The notes: generated from the letters alone by a model not told the origin. A stretch of DNA of 64,000 nt from Candidatus Aenigmatarchaeota archaeon (GCA_018920365.1 JAHLMM010000001.1:274165-338164); one strand, 5' to 3'; shown: positions 2,030-45,985, counted from the stretch's first letter. Numbers and translations are program-made.

Positions 2030-2658
2030 TTAATACTCAACCAAGAAATCTTCGGGCTTTAGCCCGTAGATGAATTGGTTGCCTTCTTCTATTACGAAAT
2101 ATAAAATAAAAAATAGGAGCAGAGCTCCACTCAATAGGAATATGTCTAGCTTTAGCTATAGAGTTCTGCTTACTTAAAGCTTTGCGAGGTGTTGTTATGG
2201 ATCAATTCAATAGCTTTAGCCATAGCATTGGAAATAATATTCACCATCTAGAATGGTGCACTAAATATAGATACAAGATGTTTAGAAAAAAAAGACTGAG
2301 AGAATATTGCAAAGATATTTTGTATATGATAGCTAGACGTCATAAAATAGAAATATTGGAATTAGCAGTGATGGAAGATCATGTGCATGTCATAGCTCAG
2401 TTGCCGCCATATATGTCCCAGTCTAAAGCTGTTCAATTGTTAAAAGGTGCATCGTCTTATGAGCTATTTAGGCTAATACCAAATTATAGATTGAGATATC
2501 CTAAAGGAAGTTTCTGGTCTAAAGGAAATTTCAAGGATACTATTGGCAGAGTGACGATAGAAGTTGCAAAGAAATATGTTCGTGAACAGCAGATGCAATT
2601 AGTTCACTTCACGAAATTAATAGGAAACTGCGGACTTTAGTCCGCAGAGGATGTCATT
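2030..2658 (+). mobile_element. IS200/IS605-family insertion sequence, TnpA-only, copy 1
   Basis: A 629-bp block almost identical to 45357..45985. It has subterminal hairpins 'tcttcgggctttagcccgtaga' (left) and 'ctgcggactttagtccgcag' (right). It encodes a 152-aa HUH Y1 transposase. Confidence 0.8.
2182..2640 (+). CDS. tnpA: IS200-type transposase TnpA (HUH/Y1)
   Basis: 152 aa with an 'HVHVI' HuH motif and the typical IS200 size. It differs from the copy at 45509..45967 by only 2 aa. Confidence 0.8.
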   Translation: MRGVVMDQFNSFSHSIGNNIHHLEWCTKYRYKMFRKKRLREYCKDILYMIARRHKIEILELAVMEDHVHVIAQLPPYMSQSKAVQLLKGASSYELFRLIPNYRLRYPKGSFWSKGNFKDTIGRVTIEVAKKYVREQQMQLVHFTKLIGNCGL

Positions 2659-18100: not shown

Positions 18101-18301
18101 AAATCCAATTAGGATTGGTTTGTATTTAAATTTGTTGAACTTGTGGCATTAACAGAAGTTTTCGCTTGCGAAAATTTGGGGAAAATTCGCAGAATTTTCC
18201 CTCTTAATCGCTGTTCAACGACCTAAAAAGGCAAATTCTTGATGAATTTAAGTATGAGTTTAGACGCCAATTTTAAATAAAATGAATAATATAAAAATAT
18301 T

Positions 18302-18475
18302 ATGGGAATGGGTAGCTTTCTTGACAAAATAACCAACACTGCTAAAAAATTTACGGAAAAAATACAAACAGATGTAAAAAGAAGAGAGGAAATAAAAATA
18401 TTGAAAGAGAAATATCTTTCTAGACTTTCTCAAAAAGAATTGATTACTTTATATAAAATGTATTTTAGTGATTAA
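18302..18475 (+). CDS. Small hypothetical protein (57 aa) abutting the downstream gene
   Basis: ATG at 18302 and TAA at 18473-75, immediately followed by the ATG at 18476. It is not in the ORF track because it is under 60 aa. Confidence 0.3.
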   Translation: MGMGSFLDKITNTAKKFTEKIQTDVKRREEIKILKEKYLSRLSQKELITLYKMYFSD

Positions 18476-19195
18476 ATGGTTAAAAGAAAAGATCCATTTG
18501 ATATGGATTTTGATATAGAACCAATAGATCTTTCTTTTCAAAAAAGAAAAGACCCAAATAAAATGTCTAAAGTAGAATTAATACGGGAGTTAGCAAATAA
18601 TATTTCAGAAAAAGATTTATATAAATCTCTTATCAGATTAGGAAAACAAAATATGGCTGAAGAATTTCAAAGTGAAATAGAATTAATTGAGAGAAAATAT
18701 GAGAAACAATTTTCTAATATAGATGGAAAAGAAACTGATATTGGTGATAAAATATTAGACTCTATTACAGATGAAATTATAAAAAATATGAAAGAAATAT
18801 ATAGACTTTCTTTTCATCCAAAGGATGAGATAGATTTTCATCATCAGTTAGAACCTTTTTTAAAGGGAATGATGTCAAATATGGAAAATTCTTTATCCAA
18901 GTTTGGATGGAAGACAAAAGTAGAGAGGGAACATGTACTGCCTTCAAATGAAAGAATAGATTTGTTAATTTCGATAGGGAATCTAAAAATAGGCATAGAA
19001 GTTAAATATGATTTAGATGAAACATCACAATTACAGAGGCTTTTAGGACAAATAGATAGATATTTACCTTATTTAGATATAATAATGATAGTTTCATATA
19101 GACCTTTAAATCAAAAAACATTATTATCTATTAAAAATAAAGAAATTGAGAAAAATAAAAAAATAAGGATATTGACACCCCATAAAATAATATAG
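18476..19195 (+). CDS. Hypothetical protein with PD-(D/E)xK-like motif
   Basis: 'ERIDLLISIGNLKIGIEVKYD' fits a D...ExK nuclease-core pattern. No other recognisable family. Confidence 0.4.
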   Translation: MVKRKDPFDMDFDIEPIDLSFQKRKDPNKMSKVELIRELANNISEKDLYKSLIRLGKQNMAEEFQSEIELIERKYEKQFSNIDGKETDIGDKILDSITDEIIKNMKEIYRLSFHPKDEIDFHHQLEPFLKGMMSNMENSLSKFGWKTKVEREHVLPSNERIDLLISIGNLKIGIEVKYDLDETSQLQRLLGQIDRYLPYLDIIMIVSYRPLNQKTLLSIKNKEIEKNKKIRILTPHKII

Positions 19196-19355
19196 GCGTC
19201 TAAACTCAGATGGATAGGAATTATCTTAAAAAGCTGTTTGGTTTTATAACATCAAGAAAAACTAATCAAGAATGGACACAAAATGCATTGAATTATGGAT
19301 ATGATTTGGAAAAAAGTAAAAAATATAGACAGATAAATATTTATCAAAAATTTTA

Positions 19356-19545
19356 AGGCGCCCGAGTGATTGAAATGAACGTATGCAGATAAACGAAGTT
19401 GCCGAAGGCAATTTTGGTGAGGTTCTGCAAGAGCCGAAACGTTTATCTGCTGTTATACGCCCCGAGCCGATAGGCGAGAGTGCAATGTGGTCGAGGAGCG
19501 AAGCGACGAAGAAGTTGAAAAAGTGCCCCTTAATATTTTTTAAAA
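19356..19545. ncRNA. Candidate structured RNA of unknown class (GC-rich island)
   Basis: About 55% GC against a roughly 30% background, lying between convergent gene ends. There is a perfect 11-bp helix (19385-19395 with 19440-19450) extended by a 5-bp helix (19380-84 with 19455-59). An internal hairpin 19398-19412 reads cUUCGg on the minus strand. Confidence 0.35.
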
Positions 19546-20537
19546 ACTTCATCAAAGTATTTAATTAGATCATTAATTTGTTCTACTTCTGTGATTACAA
19601 TTTCCGTCGGTAAATGGTTTGTATAGTGTCCAATAGACCTAACATCTCTAAATGGTATATTGAAATTTTCTGGCTTAATATCATTAATCTTGGCTTTTGA
19701 ATAATAAACTAAGCTATTTTTCCTAACTACGCACGAGAATATCATGTTATTATTCTTGAAGAAACCTATATAATGCTTCATTGGAGATATTTTTATATTC
19801 TTTGATTTTAGATGATTGAGGAATAAATTGAATATAGAAGATATTTTTTCAGGTTTATTTTTAAGGTGATATTCTAAAGTATATTCTTCTAATTTTAATC
19901 TTTCTTTTGAGGTAAGTATTTCATCTTCTGTTATCTCGCTGTCGCTGAATAATATTAATTCTTCTTTATTTTTAGTGAATAAAGAAACTTCAATTTTTCT
20001 AATTTTAACATTAATTGCTTTTTCAATTTGGGATAACCCTATACTTAATTCGGGTGAAATCCTATCAATAACCAATAGAATCTGTAAATCTTCCATTGAA
20101 TTATCTAATAGTTCATATACCTCTTTCCCAGTATCTTTTTGTAATTTATCAAAAATCTTTTTATTTTTCTTGATTTCGTTATATAGGAAATTCCTAACAG
20201 CGTCTAATTCTTCTACTGAAGCACTTTGGATAAATGAGATAAAGTTCCCTAATTGTGGCAATATATGTTTATCAATACCGTGTTTTTCTAATTCTATTTC
20301 AGTTATATAGAGAGATGGGGTCGTTGGGTTGTCCCAAACAAGAAGAAAACCATCACTAATTGAATGTTTAAAATTCTTAAAACTTTTACTTTTAACCTGT
20401 TTTTCTATTTTAATAAAAAGCGATTTATTAGAAACAATATTCTCATAATTTTTTGAAAATAAATCCGTTAATTCTTCTTCTTTTGAATATTCTTGTTTTG
20501 AATATTTTTCGTTGTTTTTTAATATCGTGTGCTTCAT
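19530..20537 (-). CDS. Hypothetical protein (335 aa), N-terminal PD-(D/E)xK-like motif
   Basis: 'LVWDNPTT...YITEIELEKHG' matches a D-x(n)-ExK pattern. The C-terminus carries an Rx6H-type 'RDVRSIGH'. No confident family assignment. Confidence 0.45.
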   Translation of the reverse strand: MKHTILKNNEKYSKQEYSKEEELTDLFSKNYENIVSNKSLFIKIEKQVKSKSFKNFKHSISDGFLLVWDNPTTPSLYITEIELEKHGIDKHILPQLGNFISFIQSASVEELDAVRNFLYNEIKKNKKIFDKLQKDTGKEVYELLDNSMEDLQILLVIDRISPELSIGLSQIEKAINVKIRKIEVSLFTKNKEELILFSDSEITEDEILTSKERLKLEEYTLEYHLKNKPEKISSIFNLFLNHLKSKNIKISPMKHYIGFFKNNNMIFSCVVRKNSLVYYSKAKINDIKPENFNIPFRDVRSIGHYTNHLPTEIVITEVEQINDLIKYFDEVFKKY

Positions 20538-20719
20538 ATTACAATACTAAATTATCAAGATATATAAATTTTATTAAAAGGAGCACTTTTCAATTGCACA
20601 TAAAAACTATTAAACGAACTTCTTTTAACCTTTAAACTAGCTTCAAATAACGAATAAATTATTTCGTCTTATTCAAAACTTGTACTATAACGAATATTCA
20701 CATAAAAATCAAAAAATTA

Positions 20720-21476
20720 AATTGTTTTTGTGAATAGCAAAAATTACACCATTGTCACCAAACTAATAAAAGAAATAAAACTAAGAAAATATTCGTATAA
20801 AACTGGGAAAAGATATATAGATATTGTCGTTAAATTTCCGAAATCAGGTAAAACATCAAAAGAATTTTTGTTATAAAGTTCAAAAAAGCAGATTCTACTA
20901 TGAGAATGTTCTAAATCAAAAATTTTATAAGAAAATACCATATTTAAAACCAAGATTAAAACTGCCAAAAGTTCTAAGAAAAGAAGACGTAACAAAAATG
21001 ATAGATGTTGTGAAAAATACAAAACATGAGCTATATTATCAGCGCTTTATTATACAGGTTTGCGTTTGAACGTTTGAGCAAAGAAACTTGAGGTGGGATG
21101 ATATAGATTTTCAGAGACATATTTCATATAAAGAAGGCTAAAGGTGACAAAGAATTGTTTTTTAGATGAGAAACTAAAACAATCGCTGAGGAATCTGGGA
21201 ACAAAACAATATGGGCTTGTATTTATCTAATCCAGAGGTGGAAAATATAGCAAAAGAACAATACAAAAAATATTGAAAGATGCTGCGAGAAAAGCAAACA
21301 TTTCAAAGAAAATAATACCAAATTCATTAAGACATTCTTTTGCTACTCATCTTTTAGAAGCAGGAGTTGATATAAGATATATACAGCAGCTTTTAGGACA
21401 TAAAAACCTTCAAACAACTCAAATCTACACTCATGTAGCAAACAAAGACATAAAAAGGCTTGCGAATGCTATTTAA
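20720..21476 (+). pseudogene. Tyrosine recombinase/integrase (XerC/D-like), degraded by multiple frameshifts and stops
   Basis: Integrase-like peptides appear in three different frames: 'ITPLSPN', 'ADSTMRMF', 'LRWDDIDFQ', 'YGLVF'. The ending '[37 protein letters not shown]' carries the R-H-R-Y catalytic region. ORF-track pieces 20824..21069 and 21273..21476 are fragments of it. Confidence 0.65.
21426..21475. repeat. Direct repeat DR1 (integrase 3' end), att-like
   Basis: The 38-nt 'tacactcatgtagcaaacaaagacataaaaaggcttgc' plus about 12 similar nt. It is repeated at 23667..23716. Confidence 0.6.
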
Positions 21477-21517
21477 GTATAAATATTTAAAGTACAATAT
21501 ATACCTTTGGTGACCTT

Positions 21518-21682
21518 ATGAGTATAATTTATTCAATACCTGTAAAACCTATTAAAAATAATGGCGCATTTAAATGCACAATTCCAAAAGAAATAACAGA
21601 TAAAATTGGAATTAAAAAAGATAATAAGATTGTTTGGATTTTATATGATGATGGTAAAATAGAGGTTAAAATAGAGAAGTGA
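21518..21682 (+). CDS. AbrB/SpoVT/MazE-type swapped-hairpin DNA-binding protein (54 aa)
   Basis: 'AFKCTIPKEITDKIGIKKDNKIVWILYDDGKIEVK' is the classic AbrB-fold motif. It lies directly upstream of the methyltransferase and is under 60 aa, so it is absent from the ORF track. Confidence 0.5.
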   Translation: MSIIYSIPVKPIKNNGAFKCTIPKEITDKIGIKKDNKIVWILYDDGKIEVKIEK

Positions 21683-21688
21683 TTAATT

Positions 21689-22504
21689 ATGAAAACATTT
21701 TCAAAGAAAAATGAAATCAACATTAGTAAAATTACTGAAAAGCATATGAAAAATAATAATGTAAAAAAGTGGGAACCGGAGAATTTTGAACTTCAAACAA
21801 CAACAATATGGAGCTTTCCTAAAAGAGGCAATTGGGCAACTCATCGTGGAGACTATAGAGGCAATTGGGCACCAGAAATACCAAGGAACTTGATTTTAAG
21901 ATACTCAAAAAAAGGTGATATAGTTTTAGATCCTTTTGTAGGTTCTGGGACTACTATTATTGAGTGTAAATTGCTTGGAAGAAGAGGTATAGGTATTGAT
22001 ATAAATCCTGATGCGATAAAACTAGCTAAAAAAAGAATTGAATTTTCGAAATTGTTTGATGAACCTCAAGAATTGAGGGTTGGCGATGCAAGAGATTTAA
22101 GTTTTATAAAAAGCAACTCTATTGATTTAATTTGTGCGCATCCACCATATGCAGACGCTATACAATATACAGATGGAATAGAAGGCGATTTATCGTTTAT
22201 TAAAAATGTTGATGAATTTGTTAACGAGATAGGTAAAGTTGCTAAAGAATGTTACAGAGTATTAAAGCCTGGTAAATATTGTGGTGTCTTAATAGGAGAT
22301 ATAAGAAGAAAAAAACGCGTCATCCCTGTTGGATTCAAAGTTATGAACGAGTTTTTAAATGTTGGTTTTAATTTGAAAGAAATTATAATTAAACTTCAAC
22401 ATGAATGCAAAACTACGCCGTTGTGGGAGAAAAAATCTATAGAATATAATTTTTTACTTCTCGCGCATGAATATTTATTTGTTTTTGAAAAGTTAGAAAA
22501 ATGA
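21689..22504 (+). CDS. N6-adenine/N4-cytosine-type methyltransferase (DNA MTase, possibly RNA MTase-like architecture)
   Basis: 'HRGDYRGNWAPEIPRNLILRYSKKGDIVLDPFVGSGTT' (motif X-I) is followed by 'ICAHPPYAD' (motif IV). Confidence 0.6.
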   Translation: MKTFSKKNEINISKITEKHMKNNNVKKWEPENFELQTTTIWSFPKRGNWATHRGDYRGNWAPEIPRNLILRYSKKGDIVLDPFVGSGTTIIECKLLGRRGIGIDINPDAIKLAKKRIEFSKLFDEPQELRVGDARDLSFIKSNSIDLICAHPPYADAIQYTDGIEGDLSFIKNVDEFVNEIGKVAKECYRVLKPGKYCGVLIGDIRRKKRVIPVGFKVMNEFLNVGFNLKEIIIKLQHECKTTPLWEKKSIEYNFLLLAHEYLFVFEKLEK

Positions 22505-22531
22505 TTCGGATCTACATAAATTTCTTTTGAT

Positions 22532-23077
22532 CTACTTAGTAGCATATTTAGTTGGTGGTGGCCAATTGCGAACAGCATTAGTTATAATTTTGTCAATCTC
22601 TTCTTCCCCTGATGCTACCCATCTTATAAACCTCATAAGAAATTCTCTCGGCGGTTCAACTTTTCCCTTTTTACAACCACCAGAACCATAATTGAACTCT
22701 TGCTCTATCATTAAAAGCTGCATATAATACAAATTAACATCTGGGTCATCTAGTTGCATTGGAAATTTTAGTTTTAAGAGTTCATTTGAATATTTTTCTG
22801 GGTCATCACCATCATATACGTTTTCTATAATAGAGAATAATTTCTTTGCATCATCTTCGTTACTCAATCTTTTAAGATACAAATCAAATAATAATCTTAC
22901 GTGCGTTGGTCTAAATTCTTTTCTTTCTGGTATTAGAAGTGAAACAGCAAAATCATGAGGACATATCTTATCAGTTCTTATAGCAAAAATTTTAGTTTTA
23001 TTTTGGCTCGTATAAATTAATTTATGCTCATTTAATTTCATTCCTCTTAATATAGGAAATAAATCTAACATTCTCAT
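22532..23077 (-). CDS. Hypothetical protein, possible small restriction endonuclease partner
   Basis: 181 aa, convergent with the MTase. 'PHD-x9-ERK' could be a PD-(D/E)xK core. The assignment is weak. Confidence 0.3.
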   Translation of the reverse strand: MRMLDLFPILRGMKLNEHKLIYTSQNKTKIFAIRTDKICPHDFAVSLLIPERKEFRPTHVRLLFDLYLKRLSNEDDAKKLFSIIENVYDGDDPEKYSNELLKLKFPMQLDDPDVNLYYMQLLMIEQEFNYGSGGCKKGKVEPPREFLMRFIRWVASGEEEIDKIITNAVRNWPPPTKYATK

Positions 23078-23132
23078 AATTATTATTTCATAAAAAAGAT
23101 TAAATTAATATAACTTTTCATTAAATAATAGT

Positions 23133-23447
23133 ATGCCAGAAAATATTATTTTAGAATGTCCATTTTGTCATAAAAAAACAGTGAACGTTATTTATTATCC
23201 ATCTATTTTACAAGCTTCTACCTCTAGGGCTGCTGGGAGAACAGTGACGAAATACTATAAAACTAAAGAAAAATATGAAGTTTTGTCAGATTGCTCTAAT
23301 TGTGGTAAAAAAATAAAAGAAATACAAAAAGCTTTGGAAGGAGAAAAAAAAGATCCAGATAAGGAAAAGGAAATAATTGAAAGATTAAAAAAACAAGGAT
23401 TGTTTATGGATGAAATAAAACAAAATTATAAGTCTAATAAGAGTTAA
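23133..23447 (+). CDS. Zinc-ribbon protein (CxxC...CxxC) with Lys/Glu-rich tail
   Basis: 'CPFCHKK...CSNCGKK'. Confidence 0.4.
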   Translation: MPENIILECPFCHKKTVNVIYYPSILQASTSRAAGRTVTKYYKTKEKYEVLSDCSNCGKKIKEIQKALEGEKKDPDKEKEIIERLKKQGLFMDEIKQNYKSNKS

Positions 23448-23666
23448 AATTTTCAACGATTTTGATTGTAATTATATATTTTTGAAGAAAATTTAGGTTT
23501 AACATATTATATTAATATTATTTTTTACGAGGTAAAATTTTAAGAAAAATCAAGTCTAGCTCAATATATATTCAACACCTAAGATACGAAAATGTAACTT
23601 ATTCAAGTGATGAATTTGTTGATATAATGGTATTTACTAGCGAAATAAACAAGATGTGTTCAATTA

Positions 23667-23716
23667 TACACTCATGTAGCAAACAAAGACATAAAAAGGC
23701 TTGCAAACGCCATTTA
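23667..23716. repeat. Direct repeat DR2, copy of integrase 3' end
   Basis: 38/38 identity to 21426..21463 and similar flanks. It is an isolated copy about 2.2 kb downstream of the integrase pseudogene. Confidence 0.6.
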
Positions 23717-23792
23717 AAAAATTTTCTAATGAATAGCAACTAAAACTTAAATACCTCAAAATTAGATATTAATCTTATCAGGTGATAAAAAC

Positions 23793-35886: not shown

Positions 35887-37290
35887 GTGGCTATGGAAGA
35901 AATAGGATATTCGCAAATAGTAAAGAAAAATGTAGAAAATAGCGTGAAAGAGGGTGCTTTACATTCAGTTAAACTAGGCGCTGGTGAATCTTATATAAAT
36001 GCTTTTGCTATAAAGGTTTTGAATTTTACAAATACGCAAATAGGTCTGTTAACATCGTTACCGCTGTTTCTTGGATATTTTTCGAATATTTTTACATCAA
36101 AGATTATTGATAAATTAAACAGCAGAAAAAAATTGATTGTTATAGGTGCATTTATAAATGCACTTTGCTTTATTCCAATATTCCTAAGTTTTTTCATAAA
36201 AGGCTATGAATTTCCATTTATGTTAGCATCAGTCACTCTATATTTTGTATCAGATCTTATTGTTACACCAGCATGGATAAGTCTGATGGGTGATATAATA
36301 CCAGATAGAATAAAACCAATATTTTTTGGTGAAAGAAATAAAATAAACAACCTTGTGGCTTTTTGCTTCATGCTTATAAGTGGCATTATACTTCACAATG
36401 TTTCTGGCATAAGTCAAATTTACGCATTTGGTATAATATTTTTTATAGCATTCCTCGCAAAGTTAGGATCTTTTTTCATGCATACAAAAATTTATGAACC
36501 AAATTATGTTTCAGATGAATTTGAAAAGTTCAGTATAGGAGATTTCATTAAAAAACTAAAATACACAAAGTTCGGAATATTTGTAATTTACATGTGTGTT
36601 TTTACATTTTCATTCAGAATAGCCGCTCCTTTCTTTTCTGTGTATATGTTCAGAGATCTTAATTTCACTTATTGGCAATTTGCAATAATAACTACTGGTA
36701 ATGCTATAGCAACAATAATTAGCATGCCATGGTGGGGCAAGTATATTGATGAATATGGAAACAAGAAAATTATGTCATTGACAGGATTGCTTATACCATT
36801 CATACCTTTTTTGTGGATGTTATCAGAAAATATAGTTTATTTGTTCATTGTTGAGATATTTTCTGGTTTTGTGTGGGCTGGTTTTAATCTATCAACATTC
36901 AATTTTGTATTTTACTCAACTTCTTCAGAAAAAAGGGCAAGAGCTTACTCATATTACAATATACTTATAGGATTTTCTATAATATCTGGAACTATGTTTG
37001 GTACTTGGCTGCTCAAGTTTGGCTATTTCTTCAAAAGTGAAATATTTATTGTGTTTATTGTTTCTTCAATTGCAAGATTGATAACAAGCTTGTATTTCTT
37101 ACCAAAAATAAAAGAACCACCTAAAAAAGAAATATCAACAATAAAATTGTTTTGGCAAGTTTCTTTTGTTGAAGCAAGAAGATCTTTGCACAATATAAGC
37201 ATATTTAAACGAAAGCCGAAAAAAAGATCTTTTTTTGAAAGACTAGTTGAACAAGTCAATGAAATTGAAAGTGCAGGAGGCAGGATTTGA
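35887..37290 (+). CDS. MFS transporter
   Basis: Twelve TM segments. The 3' end of the ORF reads through into the antisense tRNA gene. Confidence 0.6.
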   Translation: MAMEEIGYSQIVKKNVENSVKEGALHSVKLGAGESYINAFAIKVLNFTNTQIGLLTSLPLFLGYFSNIFTSKIIDKLNSRKKLIVIGAFINALCFIPIFLSFFIKGYEFPFMLASVTLYFVSDLIVTPAWISLMGDIIPDRIKPIFFGERNKINNLVAFCFMLISGIILHNVSGISQIYAFGIIFFIAFLAKLGSFFMHTKIYEPNYVSDEFEKFSIGDFIKKLKYTKFGIFVIYMCVFTFSFRIAAPFFSVYMFRDLNFTYWQFAIITTGNAIATIISMPWWGKYIDEYGNKKIMSLTGLLIPFIPFLWMLSENIVYLFIVEIFSGFVWAGFNLSTFNFVFYSTSSEKRARAYSYYNILIGFSIISGTMFGTWLLKFGYFFKSEIFIVFIVSSIARLITSLYFLPKIKEPPKKEISTIKLFWQVSFVEARRSLHNISIFKRKPKKRSFFERLVEQVNEIESAGGRI

Positions 37291-37357
37291 ACCTGCGTAT
37301 CCACTAAGGAACCAGCTCCTAAGGCTGGCGCCATTGACCAGGCTAGGCGACTCCTGC
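37272..37357 (-). tRNA. tRNA-Leu (anticodon TAG)
   Basis: GCAGGAG acceptor, D-arm GCC/GGC, anticodon stem CCAGC/GCTGG with loop CTTAGGA, long variable arm, T-arm GCAGG-TTCAAAT-CCTGC, and discriminator A. Confidence 0.85.
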
Positions 37358-45356: not shown

Positions 45357-45985
45357 TTAATACTCAACCAAGAAATCTTCGGGCTTTAGCCCGTAGATGA
45401 ATTGGTTGCCTTCTTCTATTACGAAATATAAAATAAAAAATAGGAGCAGAGCTCCACTCAATAGGAATATGTCTAGCTTTAGCTATAGAGTTCTGCTTAC
45501 TTAAAGCTTTGCGAGGTGTTGTTATGGATCAATTCAATAGCTTTAGCCATAGCATTGGAAATAATATTCACCATCTAGAATGGTGCACTAAATATAGATA
45601 CAAGATGTTTAGAAAAAAAAGACTGAGAGAATATTGCAAAGATATTTTGTATATGATAGCTAGACGTCATAAAATAGAAATATTGGAATTAGCAGTGATG
45701 GAAGATCATGTGCATATCATAGCTCAATTACCTCCATATATGTCCCAGTCTAAAGCTGTTCAATTGTTAAAAGGTGCATCGTCTTATGAGCTATTTAGGC
45801 TAATACCAAATTATAGATTGAGATATCCTAAAGGAAGTTTTTGGTCTAAAGGAAATTTCAAGGATACTATTGGCAGAGTGACGATAGAAGTTGCAAAGAA
45901 ATATGTTCGTGAACAGCAGATGCAATTAGATCACTTCACGAAATTAATAGGAAACTGCGGACTTTAGTCCGCAGAGGATGTCATT
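45357..45985 (+). mobile_element. IS200/IS605-family insertion sequence, TnpA-only, copy 2
   Basis: A 629-bp near-identical copy of 2030..2658, including both subterminal hairpins. Confidence 0.8.
45509..45967 (+). CDS. tnpA: IS200-type transposase TnpA (HUH/Y1)
   Basis: 150 of 152 aa identical to 2182..2640 (V to I, V to D). Confidence 0.8.
   Translation: MRGVVMDQFNSFSHSIGNNIHHLEWCTKYRYKMFRKKRLREYCKDILYMIARRHKIEILELAVMEDHVHIIAQLPPYMSQSKAVQLLKGASSYELFRLIPNYRLRYPKGSFWSKGNFKDTIGRVTIEVAKKYVREQQMQLDHFTKLIGNCGL

What the first reader, a model, noticed from the sequence alone, without database searches (positions are those of the whole stretch)
19356..19545. GC-rich structured element between two convergent uncharacterised PD-(D/E)xK-like genes: candidate novel ncRNA
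A 170-190-nt stretch at about 55% GC sits in a roughly 30% GC genome, exactly between the 3' ends of 18476..19195 (+) and 19530..20537 (-).

It folds into a long interrupted helix (cgtat-gcagataaacg with cgtttatctgc-tgtt-atacg, 16 bp in total) that encloses smaller hairpins. One of these is a cUUCGg tetraloop when read on the minus strand. There are duplicated 'cgccccgag'-like motifs.

In AT-rich archaea such GC islands are almost always structured RNAs (SRP, RNase P, rRNA, tRNA). This one lacks the universal RNase P CR-I/CR-V sequences and does not match the SRP RNA (found elsewhere) or 5S patterns that I know.

Both flanking proteins carry nuclease-like D...ExK cores, and the whole block lies inside a mobile or defence island. 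An RNA-plus-nuclease module is therefore conceivable.
Basis: seen in the sequence. Interest (0 to 1): 0.7.

Follow-up and report, generated by a model that had tools for sequence, protein, structure and literature searches.

The report
Folded recombination site bounding archaeal gene cassettes
The GC-rich structured stretch is real, but it looks like one copy of a repeated, hairpin-forming DNA recombination site that separates swappable gene cassettes next to a Xer-type recombinase gene in DPANN archaea (an integron-like system without an integron integrase), not a stand-alone RNA gene partnered with the neighbouring nucleases.

Summary
The GC island (19355-19543, peak 56% GC in a 32% GC Aenigmatarchaeota window) and its helices are real, and no Rfam family matches.

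It is not a single-copy RNA gene. It belongs to a repeat family in DPANN archaea: a near-invariant arm CCCGAGyGATTGAAATGAAC, a 4-bp stem AACr/TGTT, a 3-nt bulge, an 11-bp helix, two hairpins and a variable second domain. In 32 copies 93.6% of pair cells are standard pairs and 20 of 25 pairs show compensatory changes. Wobble pairs and C(GNA)G triloops mark the + strand as the folding strand.

Copies lie in same-orientation arrays, separated by 1-3 accessory genes. Arrays end at a simple palindromic site upstream of a XerA-like recombinase gene that lacks the IntI-specific insertion. Sequences left and right of the AAC triplet assort independently, and two related strains carry different cassettes at the same site.

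The window holds a two-cassette array (18137-20641) beside a decayed recombinase gene. Homologues of the 335-aa neighbour elsewhere lack the element.

Best reading (about 0.6): an attC-like, strand-folding recombination site. An RNA role is not excluded (about 0.17). Nothing matching it was found in the literature held here.

The parts
19355..19380 (+). Conserved left arm AAGGCG-CCCGAGTGATTGAAATGAAC. The 20-mer is 19361-19380. It ends in the AAC triplet (19378-19380), where the comparative breakpoints fall. By the cassette logic this arm belongs to the cassette on its left.
   Evidence: An exact-pattern scan found the 20-mer in 9 DPANN MAGs (11 sites) and one CPR MAG among GTDB species genomes, and in 30 metagenome contigs, about 24 of them with family context. 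Copies that stop exactly after GAAC: L018, L034, L038, L040, L049, L052.
19378..19454 (+). Domain 1, the folded core. P1 is AACG/TGTT (19378-81 with 19451-54). The TAT bulge is 19382-84. P2 is the 11-bp helix (19385-95 with 19440-50). The linker AAGT is 19396-99. Hairpin a with a C-GAA-G loop is 19399-19411. The junction TTTTGGTGA is 19412-20. Hairpin b with a U-GCA-A loop is 19421-35. GAAA is 19436-39.
   Evidence: Covariance-model hit of 103.3 bits, E about 1e-23. RNAalifold on a plain MAFFT alignment gives P1 and P2, with 8 of 11 P2 pairs compensatory. On 32 copies 93.6% of cells are paired and 20 of 25 pairs change on both sides; slid controls give 34-47% paired.
19455..19529 (+). Domain 2 (beta type): ATACG-CCCCGAG (a second, degenerate copy of the arm start), GAGAGTGCAATGTGG, and the GTCG..CGAC hairpin with a GCGAAGC core. 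It ends at GTGCCCC, which can pair with AAGGCGC (19355-61) to close the unit. Its role is unknown.
   Evidence: The sequence is conserved in L022:3033, L023, L044, L003/L014 and L032:965. The motif AGTGCAAyGT is shared with the commoner alpha type. Structural support is weak: 6 sequences and 3 compensatory pairs. The closing stem was predicted.
18137..18227 (+). Second, degenerate family copy. It has GAAC plus domain 1 only, with no 20-mer arm and no domain 2. This is the distal end of the array, next to the MFS transporter gene.
   Evidence: Covariance-model hit of 33.6 bits, E about 4e-6, model positions 16-108. It is 86% identical to L013 copy A over 81 nt. The sequence was read.
20591..20641 (.). 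Simple (attI-like) site upstream of the recombinase gene. It consists of a variant arm CAATTGCACATAA, then AAACTATTAAACGAAC, a spacer TTCTTTT, and an imperfect inverted arm. This is where the first cassette joins the conserved flank.
   Evidence: Alignment of W with the related strain L013: near-identity begins exactly at the AAC/AAA triplet, and the arms to its left are different alleles. The same variant arm occurs in L022:3986. A perfect 12-7-12 palindrome follows the arm and a 2-nt spacer in L051 and L054, with a slightly imperfect version in L028.
20730..21476 (+). Decayed XerA-like tyrosine recombinase gene, transcribed away from the array.
   Evidence: tblastn gives 61% identity to the intact 261-aa L013 protein over its whole length. 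The frame-1 translation has 8 internal stops. The intact orthologue scores 206.7 bits on NCBIfam recomb_XerA_Arch (cut-off 220). It aligns end to end with XerA structures 4a8e and 5hxy, but splits against IntI4 where the IntI-specific insertion lies.
19530..20537 (-). Cargo of cassette 1: a 335-aa protein with a weak DUF5655 C-terminus. It appears to carry its own AT-rich upstream region.
   Evidence: The same gene plus 19476-21500 is 95-99% identical in L003, L004 and L014, but is joined there to a different domain 1 and a different left neighbour.
18302..19356 (+). Cargo of cassette 2: ORFs of 57 aa, 239 aa (PD-(D/E)xK, PDDEXK_4) and 48 aa.

Best explanation
**What it is**

The element is a site-specific recombination site of an integron-like cassette array. 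It consists of:
- a conserved arm (CCCGAGyGATTGAAATG);
- a short spacer that starts with the AAC crossover triplet;
- a second arm that is made double-stranded by pairing with an inverted copy 60-110 nt downstream.

When the + strand is single-stranded it folds into P1 (AACr/TGTT), a 3-nt bulge and the 11-bp P2 helix, capped by a three-way junction. This rebuilds a duplex-like core site from one strand, as integron attC bottom strands and the CTX-phi attP(+) hairpin do.

**How it most likely works**

A XerA-family tyrosine recombinase, encoded at the end of the array and pointing away from it, would exchange strands at AAC. The exchange partners would be such folded sites and the simple palindromic site upstream of its own gene. 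This would insert, excise and reshuffle circular cassettes of 1-3 accessory genes.

In this window the array has two cassettes and the recombinase gene is dead. The array is therefore probably frozen unless a recombinase acts in trans.

**Shown here**
- the family and its conserved fold;
- the strand asymmetry;
- breakpoints at AAC;
- array organisation and linkage to the recombinase gene;
- cassette turnover between strains.

**Inferred, not shown**
- that the active form is single-stranded DNA;
- that this recombinase is the enzyme;
- the exact cleavage position;
- any role for domain 2.
For: 1. **Repeat family.** The 20-mer pattern is found in Aenigmat-, Woese-, Pace-, Nano- and Micrarchaeota MAGs and in about 24 metagenome contigs. 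The covariance model finds 32 good copies, with 2-3 per locus in L016, L020, L022, L019, L058, L032, L017, L024 and the window, always in one orientation.
2. **Structure.** 93.6% of cells are paired against 73% in shuffles. 156 cells change on both sides against 47 in shuffles. 20 of 25 pairs are compensatory. Slid partners give 34-47% paired. An independent RNAalifold run on a MAFFT alignment agrees.
3. **Folding strand.** There are 27 G-T wobbles on the + strand against 6 A-C pairs. Among triloop hairpins with stems of at least 3 bp, 61 have GNA loops on the + strand against 7 on the minus strand, and 46 of them are closed by C-G.
4. **Crossover.** Half-sites end exactly at GAAC or start at AAC. 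Among 37 sites, 18 pairs share the left 40 nt but not the right, 3 show the converse, and only 4 share both. The same SET-gene cassette in L017 and L058 loses identity just after GAAC-ATATGCG. W and strain L013 have 85-94% identical flanks, but carry different cassettes from the AAC triplet leftwards.
5. **Recombinase linkage.** A XerA-like gene lies downstream in the same orientation in W, L013/L016, L020, L023 and L052/L057, with fragments in L028 and L059. A simple palindromic site lies between the array and the gene.
6. **Geometry.** The folding strand, the crossover at the 5' AAC of that strand, and a recombinase gene at the far end pointing away all match the integron layout (own knowledge of integron anatomy).
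7. **Cargo.** It is typical cassette cargo: a toxin-antitoxin-like pair, a methyltransferase, a PD-(D/E)xK protein, LemA, SET and cupin proteins.
Against: - There is no experimental or read-level evidence of circular cassettes or of recombination.
- The recombinase lacks the IntI-specific insertion that integron integrases need for attC recombination.
- It may simply be the host's chromosomal XerA, with the arrays gathered at its dif site.
- The site is more elaborate than any attC. It has a 20-25 nt invariant arm, a three-way junction with conserved unpaired bases (AAGT, ATTTGGG, GAA), and a second domain of 70-100 nt. Such features are more usual in functional RNAs.
- Cassette genes point both ways, so the array is not a promoter-driven expression platform.
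- Some boundaries of high identity fall inside the element rather than at AAC. Examples are W against L003/L014 at 19476 and L017 site 1. These need homologous recombination or decay to explain them.
- The covariation counts were made on an alignment fitted to the model.
- The special stability of C(GNA)G loops in DNA is recalled from the literature and was not computed here.
Confidence: 0.6

Rival explanations
1. It is a family of structured non-coding RNAs carried by mobile cassettes, for example a regulatory, guide or maintenance RNA. It would be transcribed from the + strand. In this reading the recombination breakpoints arise because the conserved RNA gene serves as the attachment or homology site.
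For: There is strong covariation in four helices and strand-biased wobble pairs. The three-way junction has conserved unpaired nucleotides and there is a second conserved domain. It is a GC-rich island in an AT-rich genome, like the SRP RNA and tRNAs of this window. T-runs follow domain 2 in many copies. Any transcript crossing the site would adopt the same fold.
Against: No Rfam family matches the window copy or any of 10 family loci. There is no conserved upstream promoter-like sequence: the upstream sequences are either a GC-rich leader or unrelated. Neighbouring genes have no consistent orientation that would allow co-transcription. The 20-mer arm is conserved on its own in half-sites that lack the fold, which an RNA gene does not explain. 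Hairpins are capped by C(GNA)G triloops rather than the GNRA or UNCG tetraloops that dominate structured RNAs (loop preferences from own knowledge). P2 is AT-rich.
Confidence: 0.17
2. The sites are ordinary double-stranded dif-like sites, and the cassettes are elements that exploit the host XerA at the chromosomal dif (IMEX or pdif-module style). The long hairpins would then be incidental, for example terminators or insulators between modules.
For: The recombinase is XerA-like and nearly reaches the NCBIfam XerA cut-off. A 12-7-12 palindrome typical of a duplex core site lies next to its gene. The arm, a 7-nt spacer and the 5' strand of P2 also read as an 11-7-11 duplex core. Tandem accumulation at dif is known for Xer-exploiting elements (own knowledge).
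Against: Duplex binding arms should be conserved in sequence. Here the second arm varies freely but always stays complementary to a distant inverted copy. The wobble and loop asymmetry shows that one strand is under selection. Hairpins a and b keep their pairing while changing length and sequence.
Confidence: 0.13
3. The elements are ends of single-strand transposons of the IS200/IS605 or PATE kind. They would insert 3' of a GAAC target and stack in tandem, mobilised by an HUH/Y1 transposase.
For: The hairpins are strand-specific, insertion occurs immediately 3' of a fixed short sequence, and the arrays are tandem and in one orientation. The window does carry two copies of an IS200-like Y1 transposase gene.
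Against: No Y1 transposase gene lies in any family locus. The ends of the resident IS200 (2030-2658, 45357-45985) have different hairpins and no similarity to the family. The consistent neighbour is a tyrosine recombinase.
Confidence: 0.05

Closest known systems
Integron attC sites and cassette arrays (bacterial, and the archaeal integrons of Ghaly et al. 2022, PMC9668308)
   Same: Imperfect inverted repeats have variable sequence but a conserved fold. AAC and GTT triplets form the outer stem, and bulged bases lie between two paired boxes. One strand is favoured, and the crossover lies at the 5' AAC of that strand. Same-orientation arrays of small accessory-gene cassettes end at a simple site next to a tyrosine recombinase gene that points away.
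   Different: The recombinase is XerA-like and lacks the IntI-specific insertion. The right-hand core is GTTCATT followed by about 18 more invariant bases, not GTTRRRY. The spacer is mostly paired. There is a three-way junction with conserved unpaired bases and an extra domain of 70-100 nt. Cassettes can hold 1-3 genes in either orientation. The published archaeal attCs (Data S9 of that paper) are canonical 70-90 nt sites and look unlike this family.
CTX-phi attP(+) forked hairpin recombined by XerCD at dif, and other Xer-exploiting integrative elements
   Same: A Xer-type recombinase would use a duplex-like site rebuilt by folding one DNA strand. Elements accumulate in tandem at one chromosomal site beside or near the Xer system.
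   Different: The cargo here is 1-3 accessory genes, with no phage or replication genes. The sites are much more conserved and branched. The host is an archaeon with a single XerA-type enzyme. No viral contig carries the arm.
pdif modules of Acinetobacter plasmids (XerC/D)
   Same: Small accessory-gene modules, including toxin-antitoxin genes, are bounded by Xer-type sites and found in different contexts.
   Different: pdif sites are plain 28-bp duplex sites in alternating orientation. Here the sites are 110-250 nt, structured, and all in one orientation.
Hammerhead ribozyme type III (the only Rfam near-match)
   Same: It has the same three-way-junction topology: an outer helix, two hairpins, and tandem G-A next to the second hairpin.
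   Different: The score is 13.7 bits against a gathering score of 48.5. The core reads uUGGnGA instead of CUGAnGA in W and relatives, and no UH cleavage site follows the outer helix.

Membership tests
Integron (strict sense) | An integrase with the IntI-specific additional domain around patch III | tested here: not met
   The TIGR02249 and PRK15417 matches are split. Query residues 167-186 face IntI4 (2a3v) residues 178-242. XerA structures 4a8e and 5hxy align end to end.
Integron (strict sense) | Recombination sites that are imperfect inverted repeats, with conserved AAC/GTT triplets and a conserved fold but variable sequence | tested here: met
   P1 AAC(r)/(T)GTT is invariant in nearly all of 32 copies. 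P2 and both hairpins covary.
Integron (strict sense) | Canonical attC anatomy: R'' RYYYAAC and R' GTTRRRY, an unpaired central spacer, an L box with extrahelical bases, and a length of about 55-140 nt | tested here: inconclusive
   On the top strand R' reads GTTCATT and R'' reads nnYTAAC. The spacer is paired apart from a 3-nt bulge. Domain 1 is 99-170 nt, followed by a second domain. The attC covariance model of IntegronFinder/HattCI could not be run here.
Integron (strict sense) | Same-orientation cassette arrays ending at an attI next to the integrase gene | tested here: met
   Arrays occur in L016, L020, L022 and the window. A recombinase gene lies downstream in 5 independent loci, with fragments in 2 more. 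A simple site lies in between.
Integron (strict sense) | Crossover at G|TT (AA|C on the folded strand) | tested here: met
   This rests on comparative breakpoints only: half-sites, independent assortment, and orthologous-site comparison. The exact phosphodiester bond was not resolved.
Integron (strict sense) | Recombination of the folded bottom strand as single-stranded DNA | not testable with these tools
   Only indirect evidence is available: wobble pairs 27 against 6, and GNA triloops 61 against 7, both favouring one strand.
Integron (strict sense) | Mostly promoterless cassettes co-oriented with a common promoter | tested here: not met
   Cassette genes lie on either strand in W, L020, L022 and L013.
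Xer/dif system with exploiting elements | A XerA/XerCD-type recombinase | tested here: inconclusive
   NCBIfam recomb_XerA_Arch scores 206.7 bits, just below the cut-off of 220. The best solved relatives are XerA. Whether it is the host's dimer-resolution enzyme is unknown.
Xer/dif system with exploiting elements | A duplex site of two roughly 11-bp inverted arms around a 6-8 bp spacer | tested here: met
   CTATTAAGCGAG-ATAAATG-TTCGCTTAATAG lies beside the arm in L051 and L054, with a slightly imperfect version in L028 and a degenerate one in W and L013.
Known structured RNA families (Rfam 15) | A match to a curated covariance model | tested here: not met
   Nothing reaches gathering score in the window or in 10 family loci. 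Only chance-level hits appear at E<=10.
Structured ncRNA in general | A discrete transcript with a promoter and terminator | not testable with these tools
   No expression data are available. No conserved upstream element was seen.
IS200/IS605 ends or PATE | Association with a Y1 (HUH) transposase and similarity to its ends | tested here: not met
   tblastn finds no Y1 gene in any family locus. The resident IS200 ends are unrelated.

The most novel reading that the evidence does not exclude
DPANN archaea carry a previously undescribed integron analogue. It would be run by a plain XerA-type recombinase rather than an IntI, and would use elaborate strand-folding sites of 110-250 nt with an invariant 20-nt arm. 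If so, structure-specific cassette capture either arose independently of bacterial integrons, or this system preserves an intermediate between Xer/dif and integrons. It would also offer a concrete route for the cross-domain gene flow seen in cassette cargo such as the 335-aa gene.
Probability: 0.4. Interest if true: 0.85.

Novelty: new variant of a known kind. Interest (0 to 1): 0.66.

Why it matters
Integrons are the textbook case of recombination sites recognised by shape rather than sequence, and their integrase is thought to derive from Xer recombinases. A cassette system with the same geometry but a XerA-type enzyme, spread over several DPANN phyla, would be a new platform for gene capture in the smallest archaea. 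It would also bear on how integrons evolved.

The recombinase and its sites are short and well defined, so this is directly testable. On the practical side, these GC-rich islands will be mistaken for RNA genes in AT-rich archaeal genomes. The covariance model and the 20-mer give a simple way to annotate them and to delimit cassettes.

Tried and rejected
1. **Known RNA.** Rfam at gathering score and at E<=10, and ARAGORN, gave no hit. RNase P, SRP, 5S and tRNA are rejected. The hammerhead-III near-match lacks the catalytic core.
2. **An RNA coupled to the 335-aa gene** (guide or omega-RNA style). Rejected, because homologues in L005-L012 have no such element downstream.
3. **A single host RNA gene used as the att site of an island.** This was my first idea, from the break at 19476. 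No second copy of the 3' part exists in the window, and the element proved to be a multi-copy array repeat.
4. **A diversity-generating-retroelement template or a retron.** No reverse transcriptase and no template/variable repeat pair were seen in the window or loci. This was not pursued further.
5. **A protein-coding remnant** (61-aa ORF 19383-19568). No family hit, and the compensatory changes argue for base pairing.
6. **Viral or plasmid origin.** The arm and the 3' part have no exact match in IMG/VR. There is no blastn match in PLSDB plasmids or INPHARED phages.
7. **Literature.** The sequence motifs are not found in the relevant literature. Searches on archaeal integrons, Xer and DPANN found only canonical integrons. 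The published archaeal attC examples do not resemble this family.
8. **The six bacterial 20-mer hits.** Hits in Balneolaceae, Arenicellales, Arthrobacter and Paenibacillus lack the fold. They are taken as chance or unrelated matches; about 35 are expected by chance for this pattern (my own estimate).
9. **Domain 2 structure.** The RNAalifold consensus for the beta type is weak, so the structure is left open.

Full report

Yes. The window is 32% GC. Windows of 80 nt at or above 47% GC run from 19355 to 19543, with a peak of 56%.

The stretch ends at the stop codon of the 335-aa gene on the minus strand (19530-20537). It begins just after a 48-aa ORF that follows the 239-aa gene.

Folded as RNA, 19340-19540 gives -57.7 kcal/mol with z = -3.35 on the + strand, and z = -2.76 on the minus strand. 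With DNA parameters z is -2.9 and -3.3.

Rfam finds the SRP RNA and three tRNAs in the window but nothing here. Even at E<=10 the only near hit is a 13.7-bit hammerhead-III match that lacks the catalytic core. ARAGORN finds nothing here.

The organism is a Candidatus Aenigmatarchaeota MAG, GCA_038999715.1.

**2. The element is not tied to its neighbours**

The 335-aa protein has relatives of 55-92% identity in MAGs labelled Spirochaetota, Patescibacteria, Thermosipho and Elusimicrobia, and in several DPANN phyla. In seven loci that carry such relatives, the DNA downstream has no similarity to the element and no GC island.

In three contigs from other samples (L003, L004, L014), window 19476 to about 21500 recurs at 95-99% identity. 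The similarity breaks inside the element. Left of the break there is a different but recognisably related sequence, and a different neighbouring gene. The large helix there is CATTTTACGG/CCGTAAAATG instead of CAGATAAACG/CGTTTATCTG.

**3. It is a repeat family**

A related strain, GCA_026414305.1 (L013 = L016), has 92-94% identical core genes on the MCM side. It has two full copies and one truncated copy upstream of an intact 261-aa tyrosine recombinase gene. All three are in one orientation and are separated by one to three genes.

The copies share CCCGAGyGATTGAAATGAAC. Scanning one genome per GTDB species for CCCGARNGATTGAAATGAAC gave 16 loci. Ten belong to the family:
- four Aenigmatarchaeota;
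- two Woesearchaeota;
- one each of Nano-, Pace- and Micrarchaeota;
- one CPR MAG.

The six bacterial hits have no further similarity. The metagenome collection gave 30 more contigs, about 24 of them with family context. There were no hits in IMG/VR, plasmids or phages.

**4. Anatomy, on the window's + strand**

- An optional GC-rich leader, then AGGCG.
- The 20-mer arm, which ends in AAC.
- P1, AAC(r) paired with TGTT.
- A 3-nt bulge, TAT.
- P2, an 11-13 bp helix.
- AAGT.
- Hairpin a, with a C-GNA-G loop.
- ATTTGGnGA.
- Hairpin b, with a Y-GCA-R loop.
- GAA, then the 3' strands of P2 and P1.
- A second domain of 70-100 nt. It comes in at least two types that share AGTGCAAyGT.

In the window these parts lie at 19355-19380 (arm), 19378-19454 (domain 1) and 19455-19529 (domain 2). 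The end of domain 2 (GTGCCCC) can pair with AAGGCGC at the start, which closes the whole unit.

**5. Is the fold under selection?**

RNAalifold on a plain MAFFT alignment of ten copies recovers P1 and P2, with 8 of 11 P2 pairs compensatory.

I built a covariance model from that alignment with a hand-written structure. It finds 32 good copies in 21 sources. In the window it finds two: 19361-19466 (103 bits) and 18136-18227 (33.6 bits).

On that alignment:
- 93.6% of cells are standard pairs, against 73% in shuffles;
- 20 of 25 pairs change on both sides;
- 156 cells carry double changes, against 47 in shuffles;
- sliding the partners by 1-3 columns drops pairing to 34-47%.

Caveat: this alignment was fitted to the model.

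Domain 2 of the window's type is conserved in sequence, but its structure is only weakly supported.

**6. Which strand, and RNA or DNA?**

Non-Watson-Crick cells are G-T on the + strand 27 times, and A-C (a wobble on the other strand) 6 times.

Among triloop hairpins with stems of at least 3 bp, 61 have GNA loops on the + strand against 7 on the minus strand. Of those, 46 are closed by C-G. The + strand is therefore the one that folds.

C(GNA)G loops such as GCGAAGC are, to my knowledge, the classic extra-stable DNA mini-hairpins, whereas structured RNAs favour GNRA and UNCG tetraloops. This is a lead from memory, not a computation.

**7. Evidence for recombination at AAC**

- Many copies keep the leader and arm but continue with unrelated DNA immediately after GAAC: L018, L034, L038, L040, L049, L052.
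- Others begin at AAC with domain 1 and have unrelated DNA to the left: window 18137, L022:3033, L017:2590, L024:1101.
- Among 37 sites, 18 pairs share the 40 nt on the left (at least 85% identity) but not on the right (at most 50%). Three pairs show the converse, and four share both.
- A SET-domain cassette is 89% identical in L017 and L058, up to and including the next arm and GAAC-ATATGCG. After that the two loci differ.
- At the orthologous site of the window and L013, near-identity starts exactly at the AAC/AAA triplet. To its left the arms are different alleles (CAATTGCACATAA against CGATTGAAATGAAC) and the cassettes are unrelated.

**8. The recombinase and the simple site**

A homologue of the L013 recombinase lies downstream of the sites, in the same orientation, in the window, L013/L016, L020, L023 and L052/L057. 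C-terminal fragments follow the sites in L028 and L059.

Between the array and the gene lies a simple version of the site: the arm, AAC, then a 12-7-12 palindrome CTATTAAGCGAG-ATAAATG-TTCGCTTAATAG. It is perfect in L051 and L054, slightly imperfect in L028, and degenerate in the window (20591-20641) and L013.

The protein scores 206.7 bits on NCBIfam recomb_XerA_Arch (cut-off 220). It aligns end to end with the XerA structures 4a8e and 5hxy. Against IntI4 (2a3v) the alignment splits, and about 45 residues of IntI4 have no counterpart, at the position of the IntI-specific domain.

The window's copy (20730-21476) is a pseudogene.

**9. Reading**

Three features match integron geometry:
- the folding strand;
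- the crossover at the 5' AAC of that strand;
- the recombinase gene at the far end, pointing away.

The window therefore holds a two-cassette array:
- chromosome (MFS gene);
- degenerate site (18137-18227);
- cassette 2 (57-aa, PD-(D/E)xK 239-aa and 48-aa ORFs, plus the arm at 19355-19380);
- site (19378-19529);
- cassette 1 (the 335-aa gene);
- simple site (20591-20641);
- dead recombinase gene.

Other arrays carry typical cassette cargo: DUF4258/DUF2283, a cupin, an HXXEE membrane protein, LemA, a methyltransferase and a SET protein.

I put about 0.6 on a strand-folding recombination site used by the XerA-like enzyme. The rivals:
- a cassette-borne RNA family, 0.17;
- plain duplex dif-like modules with incidental hairpins, 0.13;
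- ends of HUH-type single-strand transposons, 0.05. No Y1 gene lies in any family locus, and the window's own IS200 copies have unrelated ends.

**10. Novelty**

The archaeal integrons already published have IntI-type integrases and canonical 70-90 nt attCs. The example sequences in their Data S9 do not resemble this family.

Text searches for the motifs, and for Xer-linked cassette systems in DPANN or archaea generally, found nothing. I could not run the attC detection tools. It therefore remains possible that some copies were counted in earlier surveys as attC clusters lacking an integrase.

I class the element as a new variant of a known kind.

Noticed in passing
window 21419-21476 and 23660-23717, with 21477-23659 between them: The last 58 nt of the decayed recombinase gene are repeated (91% identity) 2.2 kb downstream. 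The repeats bracket an insertion that is absent from strain L013. The insertion carries a type II DNA methyltransferase (21689-22504), a 181-aa ORF on the opposite strand and a 104-aa ORF. It looks like a small restriction-modification module that integrated using the 3' end of the recombinase gene as its attachment site. In L028 and L059 a family site is likewise followed directly by a recombinase C-terminal fragment.
   Followed up: partly
window 2030-2658 and 45357-45985: Two 629-bp copies, 99% identical, of an IS200-like element encoding a 152-aa Y1 transposase (Pfam Y1_Tnp, E about 1e-30). The ends carry the subterminal hairpins CGGGCTTTAGCCCG and CTGCGGACTTTAGTCCGCAG, which are unrelated to the family studied here.
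   Followed up: yes
window about 62143-62248, minus strand: A 60% GC island that reads as a tRNA gene with an intron. It has the acceptor stem GCACTGG/CCAGTGC and the T arm GCGGGTTCAAATCCCGC. ARAGORN missed it, and so did Rfam at gathering score. In the relaxed Rfam search only the T arm scored, as a tmRNA fragment.
   Followed up: partly
window 61490-61613, minus strand: A tRNA with a 49-nt intron, found by Rfam (40.9 bits) but not by ARAGORN. It shares 83% identity over 52 nt with the tRNA-Leu at 37272-37357.
   Followed up: no
window 19530-20537 and proteins P0001-P0098: The 335-aa cassette gene has relatives of 55-92% identity in MAGs assigned to bacteria (Spirochaetota, Patescibacteria, Thermosipho, Elusimicrobia) and to several DPANN phyla. 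In L005-L008 it lies in an island beside a tRNA gene and a phage-type integrase. It is a horizontally mobile gene of unknown function, crossing domains if the MAG assignments hold.
   Followed up: partly
L016 2754-3004, L039 549-812, L031 254-521, L044 84-358, L048 2088-2306, L035 3218-3471: Many family sites are preceded by a conserved non-coding leader of about 250 nt. The leader itself contains collapsed or degenerate copies of the site (for example GCGAATGAAATGAC-CCGTTAAATCAATGTTAG) and an inverted repeat (GGTGGCAAA / TTTGCCACC) with the end of alpha-type domain 2. The full unit may therefore be larger and more composite than described here.
   Followed up: partly
L024 (contig JBBIUM010000033.1, labelled Candidatus Yanofskybacteria): Two family copies lie on a 7.9-kb contig binned into a CPR bacterium. 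This is either mis-binning of a DPANN contig or real spread of the system beyond archaea.
   Followed up: no
L025, L027, L029 (Arthrobacter / Pseudarthrobacter): The 20-mer CCCGAACGATTGAAATGAAC occurs in three actinobacterial records within a mutually conserved GC-rich context. That context has no similarity to the archaeal family. It is probably an unrelated conserved element.
   Followed up: no
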